In this document: positions 49,098 to 62,502 of the stretch, piece after piece
Numbering within the stretch: position 1 is the first letter of the stretch
Layout: every line of letters begins with the position of its first letter
Source: Candidatus Marinacidobacterales bacterium
GTDB taxonomy: Bacteria; Acidobacteriota; Vicinamibacteria; Marinacidobacterales; SMYC01
Reading direction: 5' to 3'
DNA: 64,000 nucleotides
Assembly: GCA_965224085.1 (NCBI GenBank)
Contig: CBDCYI010000009.1
Span: 448,001 to 512,000 of the forward strand
Notes under the pieces: generated by a model
Told to the model about the DNA's origin: nothing
What the model saw: only the letters and a program-made list of their open reading frames with translations
Database searches by the model: none
Translations under genes and position numbers: made by a program

Positions 49098-49185
49098 ACT
49101 GTAGAGCCTAAGGGCCCTTGGCCCAGTCGCTAAGCTGCTGATTTATGGTCTATTTCAAAAGGGCTGAGTTTTGGCACAGGACGGG
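49098..49185. repeat. Recurrent unassigned element end; other copies at ~51087-51195 (inverted), ~58055-58617 (interrupted) and ~62380-62464
   Basis: Shared CTAAGCTGCTGATTT..TATTTCAAAAGGGCyGArTTTTGGCACAGGACGGG. Confidence 0.8.
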
Positions 49186-51086: not shown

Positions 51087-51546
51087 CCCCGTCCTGTGCC
51101 AAAACTCAGCCCTTTTGAAATAAACGATAAATCAATAGCTTAGAGTCTGTGTTTGCGACCGTGCCAAGGGCCGTAGGCTCTACAATCGTCTTGGGCGGAC
51201 AGGTCGTCACCATGCAGACGACCACCTGGTTGAGAGCGAATATCCAAGCGTAAGAGAACAAGTAAGAATAGACGAAGCGATAATGGACTTGTACGGAATC
51301 GTGTATGCCTGTGTCGAGTACCACAAGAGCCGGGATGCGCAGCAACAGTAGCTTTTGCAGGTACGCGCGCGCACCCTACGGCCTCGGCTCCACCCGTGCG
51401 CCGCGTGCGTGGCCCACCGGGCGAACCCTCCCTGACCGCCTTCGGCTGACGCCGCTTATCGAACGTTGCGCCCGTTCCACCGTCCCAGCTTCCGCAGTCG
51501 AGCAACATACGAACGTCCCCGCTGGTTTCGTGGGTGTTGGCTCGGG

Positions 51547-56153: not shown

Positions 56154-57499
56154 TGTCCTTCATCATTATTGATCCAGCGGGAATGGTACCGCTGGTGGCC
56201 CTACGACGAACGAAGAAACCCGGGTCGGCGCGCGCGGGAACTTGCCGAGATCACGCGATCAATGGGCCGCGGAGCTGGACAACGCAATCGCGAGGGACCC
56301 CAGCAATCGACGCGCAGCGACTAAACTGGCTCAGGCGGCGTCACGCCATTCGTAGCGGTGATGAAGCCCACCCACTCGCGGCAACGCGACGACTTTTGCG
56401 GTCGGTGATGGTCGGGGCGTGACGGGTCTTGAGTTCGGGGTGTCTTTGTCGAGACCCAAGTGGCAACGGTCCTCGTGGTAGTAGCTGATGTACAAGCGCA
56501 TGAGCCGGACGAGATGCCGCTCACTGAGGACAACTACATGCTCTAACATCTCGCGGCGGCAGTTTCCGATCCAGCGTTCGGCGGTACCGTTTTGCCAAAG
56601 GCTGCGATAAGAAATGCGAACAGGCTTTGTGCCCATGGCCCTGATGAACTCCACCACTGCAGGGCTGAAAATCGCGTCGCGGTCAAAGACCAAGTATCGT
56701 GGTGCCGTGTCGTATGGGAACGCCTCGCGCAGTTGTTGAATCACCCACGCTGACGTGGGGTTGTACGTCGCGTTGAAGTGCAAGATATGGCGACGGCCGT
56801 GCTCGATGACGAAGAAGCCGTACAGCAGCCGTAGCGACGCCGTCGGTACGGCGAACAGTTCCATCGCGGCGATGTCGTCCTTGTGGTTCCGCAAGAACGC
56901 AATCCATCGCTTCACTTCGTCGGGTTCGGCTCGGCGGCGCGGCATGTATCGCGACACCGTCATCTCGCTGACAACGAATCCGAGCTTCGTCAGCTCAGCG
57001 TGGATACGAGGTGCACCCCAGCCGTCTTGGGCCATCGTGCGGACGAGACGACGAATCTCGGCATCAATCCGAGGTCGACCTGGATAGCACGGACGGGAGA
57101 TCCGAGCCCAGTATCGGCGGAACCGATCTCGATTCCACCGGGCGACCGTGTCGGCGTTCACGATAACGAGCCGGCTCGCCCACGCTGGCCACGAGCTTCG
57201 GAGCGCAACCCAGAATGCTCGGTCCGTGTCCTCGAGCGGTGGCCGGGGGCGCTCCTTCTTCAACGCCGTAACTTGCAGCCGCAGGGCCAGGTTTTCAATC
57301 ACGAGGTCGGCTCGGCACCGACACATCGCCCGGATCGCACGGGCGCCGAGTGAGACGAGGAAGATGAGGACACGGAGCATGGCGGCAGAGTTTGCCGTCT
57401 CAAGACCGGGATCTCAAGCGGGAGATGCGCTCGTTGGCCGAGGCGTGAACGGTGCGTAAGTCCTTGATTTCAGGAGCGGACGGATATTGATGATGCACA
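56154..57499 (-). mobile_element. rve-integrase IS-like element, copy 1 (1346 bp); transposase 56331-57380
   Basis: Ends TGTCCTTCATCATTAT / ATATTGATGATGCACA; WGAPRIHAEL, DRD, NGTAERWIG, VGGLHHRY. Confidence 0.85.
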
Positions 57500-57847: not shown

Positions 57848-58008
57848 CGCTCGAGTGGGTGCATTGGTACAACACGCAACGACTCTTGGAGCCGATCGGA
57901 AATGTCCCCCCGGTCGAGTACGAGATGAACTACTATCGGTCGCAGGAAGGCTTGCTAGAGATGGCGAGACTCAACTAAAACAGTCTCCGGAAAACCCGGG
58001 GCGGTTCA
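57848..58008 (+). mobile_element. IS3-family right end
   Basis: LEWVHWYNTQRL..; CAGTCTCCGGAAAACCCGGGGCGGTTCA. Confidence 0.8.
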
Positions 58009-58137
58009 GAATTGCACGTGGTACGTCATCATGGAGCTGAAGATAACACCCTCGGGCCAGACGATTGTAAAGCCTACGGCCCTTGGCCCCGGCGCAAACA
58101 CAGACACTAAGCTGCTGATTTATGGCCTATTTCAAAA

Positions 58138-58583
58138 GGGGCTTATATCCATGACTAGACACGACAGAAGAATAGGAGAAGATGAAATATGCGGTCACTA
58201 AAAGGATGCTTCATGCTCGCCGTAGCTTTCGTTTTGACGCTCAACAACTTCTTCTACGCCGTCAATCCCGCTGCGGCCAAGCCCATATTCGATTGGATCG
58301 ACCCTTTCGCAGTCGTCGCCCTCGTACTCGTTTTCATCGAGAAAATCCTCGGTTCGATGCGGGGCGAAACCGAATGGCCTCGGCTCGTGGTGACGGTCCT
58401 GGTGGGGGCGCTGGTTCATTTATACGCCTACAATTACTTGGCGAAGATGGCGGGCAGTGGACTGGAGAGCGGGACCTTGTGGCTGGTTATGGTGCCGTTT
58501 GCGGTCTCCTTGCTCATCTATGAGGGCCTTTTTCTGATTCGTGAATCCAAATAGGGGCTTGTCTAGTCATGTATATAAGCCCC
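58138..58583. mobile_element. Non-autonomous 446-bp cassette with IS1595-like ends, carrying a passenger gene
   Basis: 24-bp TIRs GGGGCTTATAT(C/A)CATGACTAGACA (23/24 match); 8-bp direct repeat TTTCAAAA at 58130-58137 and 58584-58591. Confidence 0.88.
58182..58554 (+). CDS. Small membrane protein, about 4 TM helices (cassette passenger)
   Basis: AGGAGA then ATG at 58182; the hydrophobic frame is ORF 58189-58554 (alternative start, or +1 slip in the A run near 58200). Confidence 0.7.
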
Positions 58584-58718
58584 TTTCAAAAGGGCCGAGT
58601 TTTGGCACAGGACGGGGTGCGTCCGCCGATTCGACCCCAAGATGTTGGCAACGCGATACGCTCAAGCCCCATTATCTAGCGGCCTGCTCCGAGCTTGAGC
58701 CCTCAACTAATAAGAAAC

Positions 58719-59972
58719 TCAGGGTGTAGCGTTGGCAAGAGGTGTGAGAGTGACGTCAAAACCGAGCTCCCTTAGGCGTCGTGTCATTCGTATTGTGAGC
58801 TGTTCCTTGTCACGTTGATGGAAGTAATCGGCACCCAGTTCCCGGTATGGAATCTCATTGTGGAGCATGTAGTAGACGGCGGTGATGATGGAGGCGGCGA
58901 CGGCGACGACAGCTTTCTTGGGGCCCCGACGAGATTTGAGCCGGAAGAACTGGGCACGCAGATAGCTGTCGCGCTTGCGGCTTGCCGCCCAAGCGGCTTG
59001 GACAAGAGCGGTCTTGAGCCATGGAGCCCCTTTGCGGGTTTTCTGAGAAAAGCGTTTACCGGCACTCTCATGAAGCCGTGGGCATAGACCGGCCCAAGAG
59101 CGAAGGTGTCCGGCCGTTGGGAATGCCGAGACATCGGGTCCGATCTCGGCGACGAGAATGGCCGCCGTGGCTTCACTGATGCCCGGGATCGTCACCAGAA
59201 GCTCGATGGCCGACCGAAAAGGGCACAGGCTCTCTGTGATACGGGATTCGAGCGCGCTCACTGAGGCTTCAAGCTGCTCGATATGATTGAGATGAAAACC
59301 CAACAGGAAACGATGATGGTCGGTAACGTAGCCCTCGAGCGCTGCGCTCAATTCCTGTTCAGTGGCTTTGAGTCGGCTCGAGCCCAGCTCACTCAGCTTG
59401 TGAGGGTCGCTTTCTCCCGCAATGATCGCTCGGAGAATCGCCCGCCCGCTTACTCCCAAAATCGTGCTAATCACGCTCGTCAATTTGATGTTCGCGTCTT
59501 CCAACGTCTTTTGAATTCGCTGGGTCTCCCGAGCGATTTCTCGAACGAACTGCTTTCGCGTTCGGGTCAGCTCTCGCAGTTCCTGGATCGGCGTTGGCGG
59601 AACGAAGCTAGCTCGAATGAGACCATGGGCAAGCAAATCCGCTATCCACAAGGCATCACTGATATCGCTCTTACGACCCGGCATGTTCTTGACGTGGGCC
59701 GGTTGTGCCAACACCAACTCAAAATGACCTTCGAGCACATGCCACACCGGCTTCCAATACACTCCGGTCGCTTCCATCGCTACAATCGTGCAACCGCACT
59801 GCCCCAGCCAATCCAACATTTCCAGCAATTCGCTCGTGGCCGTGCCGAACACACGCGTCTCGCGCACCACCTTCCGCTTCGTCGCTACCCGCACGCAAGC
59901 CGTAATCGATTTCTGGTGGACGTCCAATCCAGCGCATCGCTTATGAACCACTCTAATCGCAGCCTCCTTCAC
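58719..59972 (-). CDS. IS110-family DEDD recombinase/transposase
   Basis: CAGLDVH, MEATGVYW, GRKSDISDA, TIPGI, WAGLCP..ESAGK. Confidence 0.95.
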   Translation of the reverse strand: MKEAAIRVVHKRCAGLDVHQKSITACVRVATKRKVVRETRVFGTATSELLEMLDWLGQCGCTIVAMEATGVYWKPVWHVLEGHFELVLAQPAHVKNMPGRKSDISDALWIADLLAHGLIRASFVPPTPIQELRELTRTRKQFVREIARETQRIQKTLEDANIKLTSVISTILGVSGRAILRAIIAGESDPHKLSELGSSRLKATEQELSAALEGYVTDHHRFLLGFHLNHIEQLEASVSALESRITESLCPFRSAIELLVTIPGISEATAAILVAEIGPDVSAFPTAGHLRSWAGLCPRLHESAGKRFSQKTRKGAPWLKTALVQAAWAASRKRDSYLRAQFFRLKSRRGPKKAVVAVAASIITAVYYMLHNEIPYRELGADYFHQRDKEQLTIRMTRRLRELGFDVTLTPLANATP

Positions 59973-62268: not shown

Positions 62269-62502
62269 TGTCAAAACTTGGAGTCTCCGGAAAACCCGGT
62301 TCTCCTCTCGCAGGTAGTCGATCACATCCTGCTCCTGGCGGTTGAGCCAGCCAGCCAGAACGAGGAGTAGGAATTGCACGCCCTTGGCCCGGGCGCAAAC
62401 ACAGACACTAAGCTGCTGATTTGTTGTCTATTTCAAAAAGGGCCGAATTTTGGCACAGGACGGGATCGGTCAGTCGAGTTTTCATTAATTAAATCATCCA
62501 CC

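What the first reader, a model, noticed from the sequence alone, without database searches (positions are those of the whole stretch)
58130..58591. Transposase-free mini-cassette carrying one unknown membrane-protein gene, with empty target sites in the same window
Seen: 446 bp with 24-bp TIRs (one mismatch) and an exact 8-bp duplication TTTCAAAA. It contains only an RBS and a ~120-aa ORF with about 4 TM helices that ends 5 bp before the right TIR. The uninterrupted target TATTTCAAAAGGGC..TTTTGGCACAGG is present at ~49151, ~51100 (inverted) and ~62429, which shows this is an insertion. Known: IS1595-family elements have ~25-bp TIRs and 8-bp AT-rich duplications and form non-autonomous passenger-carrying derivatives. 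Inference: a minimal gene-delivery cassette mobilised in trans; no promoter fits inside, so expression would rely on the TIR or flank.
Basis: partly seen in the sequence, partly recalled or inferred. Interest (0 to 1): 0.8.

Follow-up and report, generated by a model that had tools for sequence, protein, structure and literature searches.

The report
Transposase-less mini-transposon carrying membrane-protein gene
A 446-base mobile DNA cassette with no transposase of its own carries one small membrane-protein gene of unknown function and has copied itself within and between unrelated bacteria; the kind of element is known, the cargo is not.

Summary
Window 58138-58583 is a 446-bp element with 24-nt inverted ends (1 mismatch) and an exact 8-bp duplication, TTTCAAAA. 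It holds only a Shine-Dalgarno site and a 121-aa ORF predicted as four helices.

It is a real mobile element. The genome has 6 copies, and 5 of 5 full-length ones have perfect 8-bp duplications at four different sites. A Gammaproteobacteria MAG has 11 copies, and Alphaproteobacteria and Marinacidobacterales MAGs hold one to two.

The cargo is a real gene. It has 71 homologues, and dN/dS between cassette copies in different hosts is 0.07-0.3. TIR-less syntenic homologues sit in Nitrospinota-type chromosomes. A decayed-TIR copy lies at one site in Bryobacterales MAGs.

The ends and the AT-rich 8-bp duplications match IS1595-family elements of the same genomes (10-18 of 23 end bases). No transposase-bearing element with the same ends was found, so the helper is inferred.

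This fits the known class "mobile insertion cassette". It is a new member with an orphan cargo that matches no protein family or specific fold. In this genome only 2 of 6 copies keep the intact 121-aa frame. The "empty sites" are paralogous ends of an rve-type IS, not empty alleles.

The parts
58130..58137 (.). left copy of the 8-bp target-site duplication, TTTCAAAA
58138..58161 (+). left terminal inverted repeat, 24 nt
   Evidence: exact match, none expected in 100 shuffles
58174..58178 (+). Shine-Dalgarno-like AGGAG, 10 nt before the ATG
   Evidence: read
58189..58554 (+). passenger ORF with stop codon: 121 aa, four predicted transmembrane helices, orphan family
   Evidence: GC at codon positions 1/2/3 is 0.56/0.36/0.71.
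58200..58203 (+). A4 run; it is A5 in the two copies that share flanks (C9:10954 and C5:2294317), which shifts the frame read from Met1
58213..58215 (+). internal ATG (Met9) preceded by AAGGA. It is the start of the many 113-aa database homologues and of copies with the A5 run.
   Evidence: several 113-aa hits covering 93% of the query
58426..58426 (+). a G that is missing in 4 of the 6 genome copies, which frameshifts the last third of the protein
58560..58583 (-). right terminal inverted repeat, 24 nt, 1 mismatch (position 12)
58584..58591 (.). right copy of the duplication, TTTCAAAA
58031..58617 (-). host of the insertion: the 5' end (terminal repeat plus leader) of an rve_3-type IS. The cassette interrupts it, and it is cut off on the left near 58010.
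   Evidence: 95 copies of its terminal 20-mer; consensus; a full copy encodes an rve_3/HTH_21 protein
49151..49180 (+). paralogous uninterrupted target (same IS end)
51093..51122 (-). paralogous uninterrupted target (same IS end)
62428..62463 (+). paralogous uninterrupted target with one extra A

Best explanation
This is a mobile insertion cassette: a non-autonomous transposable element made of two 24-nt IS1595-type ends around one passenger gene. A DDE transposase encoded elsewhere, most likely of the IS1595 family, binds the two ends. It moves the 446-bp unit into AT-rich 8-bp targets and duplicates them.

Shown here: the element's mobility, the absence of a transposase inside it, the multiple independent insertions, and its presence in several phyla. 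Also shown: the cargo is a conserved gene under purifying selection.

Inferred: the transposase family, from the 8-bp AT-rich duplications and from end resemblance to PF12762 elements of the same genomes. Also inferred: that the cargo was captured from a resident chromosomal gene of the kind seen in Nitrospinota-type genomes, and that the cargo is transcribed from the flank or from an atypical promoter.

The cargo is a 121-aa inner-membrane protein. The positive-inside rule, applied by eye, puts both termini in the cytoplasm. Its most conserved stretch (residues 79-99, YAYNYLAKMAGSGLESGTLWL) would then face outward. Its biochemical role is unknown.

The window copy is one of two intact copies in this genome. 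It sits inside the leader of another IS, in a nest of IS fragments.
For: Structure and chance.

Copies: the genome has 6 places. All 5 full-length copies have 8/8 duplications: TTTCAAAA, GAACGCAA, CAGCGTTT, and ATTTCAAA twice within a duplicated 13-kb block.

Other genomes: G403 has 11 copies, all 446 bp. Nine of the 11 have perfect 8-bp duplications. The other 2 have swapped flanks, the signature of an inversion between inverted copies. All 11 ORFs are intact. G404 and G401 each have 1 full-length copy with a perfect duplication.

Empty form: a joint skipping 454 bases was seen in 4 of 4 runs laid.

Gene reality: 71 homologues among 175 candidates, with 13 invariant columns. dN/dS is 0.07-0.37 in 34 of 36 pairs; the two exceptions differ by only 8 and 11 bases. 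GC3 is 0.71 against GC2 0.36. TIR-less homologues lie in conserved synteny between a methyltransferase-like gene and SDR-like genes (neighbours named by eye).

IS1595 link: PF12762 is present in all 4 cassette-bearing genomes searched, with 15, 26, at least 150 and 8 matches. Their elements have 8-bp AT-rich duplications, including TTTCAAAA and ATTTCAAA, and ends sharing 10-18 of 23 bases with the cassette; the best is a 2674-bp element in G403. Those elements carry passengers: a D12 methylase with a PD-(D/E)XK nuclease, and a Panacea-domain protein. A published IS1595/IS1016 member makes 8-bp AT-rich repeats and has the IR GGGGCTGTACTAGA (PMC12561309, passages).
Against: No transposase-bearing element carries the same ends. 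With up to 5 mismatches in G000 and up to 3 in five other genomes, every hit belongs to a cassette or a cassette remnant. Exact-match scans of JGI metagenome contigs and of IMG/VR found nothing.

Homology to the best IS1595 candidates stops after about 23 nt, so the cassette is not a simple deletion derivative of them. In G000 the best IS1595 end shares only 13-15 of 23 bases.

Four of the 6 G000 copies carry the 1-base deletion at 58426 (one of them is restored in frame by a further 5-base loss), so the cargo is dispensable here.

No promoter was detected. The RNA-library contigs do not prove transcription, because DNA can be present in such libraries. The direction of capture is unresolved: the tree has 12 of 21 inner branches open.
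Confidence: 0.8

Rival explanations
1. The cassette is mobilised by a transposase of another family that also makes 8-bp duplications, and the likeness of its ends to IS1595 ends is superficial.
For: No cognate IS1595 element was found. End identity is at most 18 of 23. G000 holds a pair of ends with 16 of 23 identity around a DDE_Tnp_1/DUF772 transposase gene.
Against: That pair belongs to a 294-bp element which the 1688-bp IS merely interrupts. None of the 8 other copies of that IS examined has those ends. That IS was not found in G403 or G404, which hold 11 and 2 cassette copies. All 17 IS1595 ends compared share 10-18 of 23 bases, against about 6 expected by chance. No other family was tested systematically.
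Confidence: 0.12
2. The origin runs the other way. The family began on the mobile cassette, and the TIR-less copies in Nitrospinota-type genomes are old domesticated insertions whose ends have decayed.
For: Decay of the ends with retention of the ORF is seen directly in Bryobacterales. Four MAGs and one metagenome contig share one upstream flank; the ends are degenerate, and the right end is lost in L038, L040 and L105. The tree cannot be rooted.
Against: The TIR-less copies are the more diverse set (52-60% identity to the query) and keep one synteny in 9 genome loci and 1 metagenome locus. More distant relatives (P0074, P0081-87) exist, but their context was not examined.
Confidence: 0.25
3. 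The ORF is a chance open frame in a plain non-coding MITE.
For: Other frames of the GC-rich element are also open (113 aa and 73 aa). Four of the 6 local copies are frameshifted.
Against: Homologues exist without any TIR in other phyla. dN/dS is well below 1. The codon-position GC pattern is that of a coding frame. The four-helix model is confident. All 11 ORFs in G403 are intact.
Confidence: 0.02
4. The cargo serves the element rather than the host, for example as a membrane toxin or addiction factor that penalises loss of the element.
For: Related IS1595 elements in G403 carry a restriction-modification pair and a Panacea-domain gene, both selfish or defence-type cargo. Weak sub-threshold hits to holin families were seen (E 0.1-0.16).
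Against: There is no partner gene inside the cassette. Frameshifted copies persist beside intact ones. The gene is a stable single-copy resident in Nitrospinota-type and Bryobacterales genomes. There is no PADLOC match.
Confidence: 0.08

Closest known systems
Mobile insertion cassettes (MICs), e.g. MIC231 of Bacillus cereus and the qnrS2/qnrD cassettes
   Same: IS-type inverted ends and a target duplication around passenger ORF(s), with no transposase, moved in trans by a related IS. MICs are named with MITEs and solo IRs as IS derivatives in PMC3129680 (passages). The qnrD and qnrS2 cassettes were seen in search listings and abstract starts only (PMC3913671, PMC5444012, PMC2600179). The content of the MIC231 paper is recalled; it was seen only as a reference.
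   Different: The ends here are of the IS1595 type. The cargo is an orphan 4-helix membrane protein rather than a resistance or metabolic gene. The unit is very tight: 51 bp before and 5 bp after the ORF, between the 24-nt ends. The same cassette occurs in MAGs titled Acidobacteriota, Gamma- and Alphaproteobacteria.
IS1595-family 'transporter' IS with passenger genes (ISPna2+/ISNwi1+ groups; Siguier et al. 2009)
   Same: 8-bp AT-rich duplications, ends beginning GGG..TTAT, and passenger genes. Examples found here are the 2569-bp and 2674-bp elements of G403. The notion of transporter IS is in PMC3129680 (passage). The group names and end consensus are recalled from ISfinder and were not tested.
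   Different: Those elements encode their own PF12762/PF12760 transposase; this cassette does not. Sequence likeness is confined to about 23 terminal bases.
MITEs
   Same: Short, non-autonomous, multi-copy, with TIRs and a target duplication.
   Different: MITEs are non-coding by definition; this element is almost entirely one gene.
ISApl4 (IS1016 group of IS1595)
   Same: 8-bp AT-rich direct repeats (for example TTAATAAA, TTTAATTA). Its IR GGGGCTGTACTAGA shares the GGGGCT start and an ACTAGA motif with this cassette's TIR (PMC12561309, passages).
   Different: It is a 712-bp autonomous IS with 14-bp ends. In ungapped register only 8-9 of 14 bases agree.

Membership tests
Mobile insertion cassette (MIC) | terminal inverted repeats of an IS type | tested here: met
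   24-nt TIR with 1 mismatch. It shares 10-18 of 23 bases with the ends of 17 PF12762-element termini.
Mobile insertion cassette (MIC) | target-site duplication at independent insertion sites | tested here: met
   Perfect 8-bp duplications in 5 of 5 full-length G000 copies, 9 of 11 in G403, 1 of 1 in G404 and 1 of 1 in G401.
Mobile insertion cassette (MIC) | no transposase gene inside | tested here: met
   The only credible ORF is the 121-aa membrane protein. PF12762 matches lie elsewhere in the genome and none is in the window.
Mobile insertion cassette (MIC) | one or more passenger genes unrelated to transposition | tested here: met
   A conserved ORF under purifying selection, with TIR-less chromosomal homologues.
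Mobile insertion cassette (MIC) | mobilised in trans by a cognate transposase | not testable with these tools
   Multi-copy spread implies it. No cognate element was found.
IS1595 family (as a derivative) | 8-bp, AT-rich direct repeats | tested here: met
   The same holds for PF12762 elements of the host genomes and for ISApl4 (PMC12561309).
IS1595 family (as a derivative) | ends matching those of a family member closely enough for the same transposase to act | tested here: inconclusive
   The best match is 18 of 23 (G403, 2674-bp element). In G000 the matches are 13-15 of 23. No element matches with 5 or fewer mismatches in G000, or 3 or fewer in five other genomes.
IS1595 family (as a derivative) | DDE transposase with an N-terminal zinc ribbon (PF12762 + PF12760) | tested here: not met
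   Absent from the cassette, as expected for a non-autonomous derivative. It is therefore filed as a derivative and not as a member IS.
MITE | non-coding | tested here: not met
   363 of the 446 bp code for a conserved protein.
Any curated protein family for the cargo (Pfam, NCBIfam, PADLOC, PHROGs) | score above the curated cut-off or a significant E-value | tested here: not met
   Best Pfam score is 16.7 bits against a cut-off of 34.3. NCBIfam scores are far below their cut-offs. PADLOC gave 0 matches. PHROGs E-values are 0.03 or more.

The most novel reading that the evidence does not exclude
A single orphan membrane-protein gene was lifted from a resident chromosomal locus of a Nitrospinota-type bacterium and packaged between IS1595-type ends into the smallest possible gene vehicle. 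It then passed between unrelated phyla that share one host-associated community: the cassette occurs in RNA-library contigs, one of them from a run labelled sponge metagenome. It is kept under purifying selection and has become fixed at one site in Bryobacterales. That would mean the protein gives a habitat-specific benefit that works in any Gram-negative envelope. With its conserved face turned outward, it could provide immunity or exclusion against a membrane-acting toxin or a phage.
Probability: 0.2. Interest if true: 0.7.

Novelty: new member of a known kind. Interest (0 to 1): 0.5.

Why it matters
This cassette shows the whole life cycle of a minimal gene vehicle in natural genomes:
- a resident, TIR-less gene;
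- an active cassette, with 11 identical copies in one genome and near-identical copies (93-98% protein identity) in MAGs of three phyla or classes;
- decay of the cargo after insertion, as in this genome;
- fixation with loss of the ends, as in Bryobacterales.

It also flags an orphan family of small membrane proteins: only 26 clusters out of 1.84 billion representatives. Selection keeps this gene even on a selfish carrier, which makes it a reasonable target for functional work. For annotation, it shows that IS-dense genomes hide coding passengers inside what looks like IS debris.

Tried and rejected
Cargo function:
- Pfam, NCBIfam, PADLOC and PHROGs gave nothing significant.
- Foldseek against the PDB gave no hit at E <= 0.001.
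- VIA-align wide gave a best Z of 10.6, to a KCNQ1 voltage-sensor bundle. That is below the tool's own caution level of about 13 for helical bundles, so it indicates only a generic four-helix bundle.
- The ESM Atlas returned unnamed clusters at 0.90.
- The homodimer prediction returned no verdict.

Spread:
- The protein was not found in the other 400 sampled genomes of the phyla.
- tblastn found no match in 72,556 plasmid or 50,697 phage records.
- The second metagenome scan gave only 2 loci, one Bryobacterales-type and one resident-type, with no new architecture.

Helper transposase:
- A pair search in G000 looked for any two TIR-like ends (8 or fewer mismatches) 0.5-9 kb apart with at least 6 of 8 duplication bases. 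It gave one pair, which proved to be a 294-bp element interrupted by an unrelated IS. That DDE_Tnp_1 IS is rejected as the helper.
- Alignment of the cassette ends with the best IS1595 candidates shows no homology beyond the TIR.

Solo TIRs:
- G000 C4:56353-56376 has no partner, and the adjacent DNA gave no Rfam match.
- The solo TIR of G404 is a 136-bp remnant of a cassette.

Origin: the maximum-likelihood tree with distant relatives was unresolved.

Reads: contigs of the four runs show no indel at 58200-03 or at 58426 (table 4). Contigs drop rare variants and the runs may not be the source, so the frameshifts of the other copies are neither confirmed nor refuted. Depth in RNA-library contigs (174 over the cassette against about 4.8 in the unique right flank of X14) cannot be read as expression, by the tool's own caveats.

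No supplementary files were consulted.

Full report
**What is there.**
Window 58138-58583 is a 446-bp unit bounded by 24-nt inverted repeats with one mismatch at position 12. It is flanked on both sides by TTTCAAAA. The TIR occurs nowhere else in the window, and none is expected in 100 shuffles.

Inside are an AGGAG (58174-78) and one ORF, 58189-58554. The ORF is 121 aa and ends 5 bp before the right TIR. AlphaFold2 on a 34-sequence alignment gives four long helices with mean pLDDT 86.8. The element is 52.5% G+C against 60.1% for the window. The ORF shows a coding pattern, with GC1/2/3 of 0.56/0.36/0.71.

**It is a mobile element, not a local oddity.**
The window's genome (G000; the window is C9:448001-512000) holds six places matching the unit. 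Five are full length and one lacks the left 60 bp or so.

All five full-length copies have perfect 8-bp duplications: TTTCAAAA, GAACGCAA, CAGCGTTT, and ATTTCAAA twice. The last two lie in a 13-kb block that is 99.7-99.85% identical between the end of contig C5 and the start of C9. They therefore count as one insertion.

A TIR search with up to 5 mismatches finds only these copies plus one solo TIR at C4:56353-56376.

**The "empty sites".**
The sequence interrupted by the cassette is the 5' end of an rve_3-type insertion sequence, made of its terminal repeat plus leader. Its terminal 20-mer occurs 95 times in G000. The consensus runs into the start of a transposase gene. A full copy encodes an rve_3/HTH_21 protein.

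The sites at 49151, 51093 (-) and about 62428 are thus paralogues, not empty alleles. They still show what the target looked like. Contigs of all four public runs laid on the region contain the joined form that skips exactly 454 = 446 + 8 bases.

Two independent insertions in G000, one cassette in G401 and one IS1595 element in G401 have all hit the same AT-rich patch of this IS end, at TTTCAAAA or ATTTCAAA. In a 60% G+C genome, a 95-copy repeat with an AT-rich patch is simply the commonest good target.

The window copy lies in a nest of IS fragments. An rve_3 ORF lies at 56331-57380 (-) and an IS110-family transposase at 58719-59972 (-).

**The cargo is a real gene.**
A search of 5.8 billion clustered proteins gave 71 hits at E <= 0.01 among 175 candidates, ranging from 96% down to about 47% identity. 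The alignment has 13 invariant columns and a strongly conserved stretch, YAYNYLAKMAGSGLESGTLWL.

A profile search of 1.84 billion representatives found only 26 clusters at E <= 0.001, so the family is small.

Between cassette-borne copies in different hosts, dN/dS is 0.07-0.37 in 34 of 36 pairs. The two higher values, 0.56 and 0.97, come from pairs only 11 and 8 bases apart. For example, the window copy and the Gammaproteobacteria MAG copy differ at 25 of 363 bases, with dN/dS 0.11.

No curated family matches, and no specific fold match was found.

**Three states of the gene in nature.**
Of 21 loci found in one-genome-per-species contigs:
- Seven are TIR-flanked cassettes. Two are in MAGs titled Candidatus Marinacidobacterales, one of them decayed. 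Four are in one Gammaproteobacteria MAG and one is in an Alphaproteobacteria MAG. Protein identity to the window copy is 93-98%.
- Four are in Bryobacterales MAGs. They share one upstream flank and have degenerate ends, and the right end is lost in two of them. The ORF is intact, with dN/dS of 0.04-0.22 among them.
- Nine are in Nitrospinota-titled or unclassified MAGs (52-60% identity for the whole-length matches). They have no TIR and keep a conserved neighbourhood of a YidC-like gene, a 373-aa gene, a methyltransferase-like gene, this gene, then two SDR-like genes, named by eye.
- One (L050) has other flanks and was not classified.

Two further loci from metagenome contigs are of the Bryobacterales and resident types.

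The Gammaproteobacteria genome (G403) has 11 copies, all 446 bp, and all 11 have intact ORFs. Nine have perfect duplications. The other two are inverted copies 17.7 kb apart whose flanks are swapped, the mark of an inversion by recombination between them.

I read the resident form as the likely source of the cargo. The tree is unresolved, however, and the reverse direction is not excluded.

**State of the cargo in this genome.**
The six copies fall into two types.
- The window copy and the C11 copy keep the 121-aa frame. They differ by one residue.
- The other four lack the G at 58426, which frameshifts the last third of the protein.
  - Two of them also have A5 instead of A4 at 58200-03.
  - One has a further 5-base loss that restores the frame.

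The deleted type sits at three different sites, so it transposed after the cargo broke. Mobility therefore does not depend on the cargo.

Many database homologues are 113 aa and start at Met9 (58213), which has its own AAGGA. The A-run therefore only toggles the N-terminal eight residues.

Contigs of the four runs show no indel at either place, but contigs drop rare variants.

**Which transposase moves it.**
No transposase-bearing element has these ends, in any of these searches:
- G000, with up to 5 mismatches;
- five other genomes, with up to 3 mismatches; every hit there is a cassette or a cassette remnant;
- exact-match scans of JGI metagenome contigs and IMG/VR, with 0 hits.

The family-level evidence still points to IS1595:
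- PF12762 genes are present in all four cassette-bearing genomes searched: 15 matches in G000, 26 in G403, at least 150 in G404 and 8 in G401.
- Where their ends could be defined, these elements make perfect 8-bp, mostly AT-rich duplications.
- Their ends share 10-18 of 23 bases with the cassette's, with a common GGG..TTAT......TGAC layout.
- The closest are two G403 elements of 2674 bp (18 of 23) and 2569 bp (16 of 23). Both carry passengers: a Panacea-domain gene plus an unknown ORF, and a D12 methylase plus a PD-(D/E)XK nuclease.

Likeness stops at the TIR.

The one rival seen was a DDE_Tnp_1/DUF772 IS lying between TIR-like ends in G000. It fails on two counts. Those ends belong to a 294-bp element that the IS interrupts. 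The IS was also not found in G403 or G404.

**Expression.**
No sigma-70-type promoter was detected in or beside the element.

Contigs from three RNA libraries of two studies contain the cassette:
- One 418-nt contig covers 58138-58555.
- One 365-nt contig comes from a run labelled sponge metagenome. It bridges the flank of the C11-type locus into the cassette.

This is compatible with read-through from the flank. DNA carry-over cannot be excluded.

**Comparison with what is known.**
Transposase-less units that carry passenger genes between IS-type ends are called mobile insertion cassettes. They are listed with MITEs and solo IRs as IS derivatives that a related transposase can activate (PMC3129680, passages). 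Resistance-gene examples, qnrS2 and qnrD, were seen here only as search listings and abstract starts.

IS1595-family elements with passenger genes are also described. That paper was seen only as a reference, and its content is recalled.

A published IS1595/IS1016 member makes 8-bp AT-rich repeats and has the IR GGGGCTGTACTAGA (PMC12561309, passages).

Searches for 'Marinacidobacterales' (0 papers), and for mobile insertion cassettes together with IS1595 or with membrane proteins and MAGs, found nothing on this cassette.

**Verdict.**
This is a new member of a known kind. Of interest are its tightness, its orphan cargo under selection, its presence in several phyla, and the fact that all stages of its life cycle can be seen. 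Its helper transposase and the cargo's function remain open.

Noticed in passing
G000 genome-wide (e.g. C4:963504 and C4:965194; C5:1475538 and C5:1477236); outside the window: A 1688-bp IS encoding a 454-aa DDE_Tnp_1/DUF772 transposase gives about 100 matches in G000 and in G402, and 12 in G401. Several copies lie head to tail about 1690 bp apart, which suggests tandem arrays.
   Followed up: partly
G000:C9:570407-572388 (outside the window): A 294-bp MITE-like element with IS1595-like ends (16 of 23 bases shared with the cassette) and the duplication AATAATCG. It is interrupted by a copy of the 1688-bp IS, and it is the only copy with these ends in the genome.
   Followed up: partly
window 58031-58617, 49102-49185, 51093-51200 (-), 62380-62465; 95 copies in G000: The 5' end of an rve_3-type IS (terminal repeat plus a leader of about 130 nt) is one of the commonest repeats in the genome. 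Many copies look truncated or solo, and it acts as a hotspot for IS1595-type insertions.
   Followed up: partly
G000:C4:56353-56376: A solo cassette-type TIR (2 mismatches) followed by AAAAAAAA, with no partner within 9 kb. It shares GAATCCAAA just inside the TIR with the cassette. The adjacent 337 bp gave no Rfam match.
   Followed up: partly
L101 and L102 (G403:C16:184283-184728 and 201972-202417): Two inverted cassette copies with reciprocally swapped duplications (TTTATTTA/AAAAAAAA and TAAATAAA/TTTTTTTT). This indicates a 17.7-kb inversion by recombination between cassette copies.
   Followed up: yes
L072:5107-7675 and L073:266-2939 (G403): IS1595-family elements of 2.6-2.7 kb that carry passengers: a D12 adenine methylase with a PD-(D/E)XK nuclease (a mobile restriction-modification pair), and a SocA/Panacea-domain gene with an unknown 239-aa ORF.
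   Followed up: partly
G404 (Alphaproteobacteria MAG), whole genome: At least 150 PF12762 matches scored out of 258 candidates in a 5-Mb genome, mostly one 350-aa type. This is an extreme IS1595 expansion.
   Followed up: no
G000 C5:2283774-2296371 and C9:1-13008: A 13-kb block that is 99.7-99.85% identical between a contig end region and a contig start, with a 541-bp difference. It is either a segmental duplication or the same locus assembled twice, and it contains one cassette copy.
   Followed up: partly
window 57977-58010: A sequence resembling an IS3-family terminal repeat (recalled likeness, not tested) abuts and truncates the rve_3-type IS that hosts the cassette. The IS3-type reading frame upstream looks broken.
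   Followed up: no
G403:C4:390921-391366 and 391869-392314: Two cassette copies in the same orientation only 503 bp apart, each with its own perfect duplication (CTGCAAAA, TTTCAAAA).
   Followed up: no
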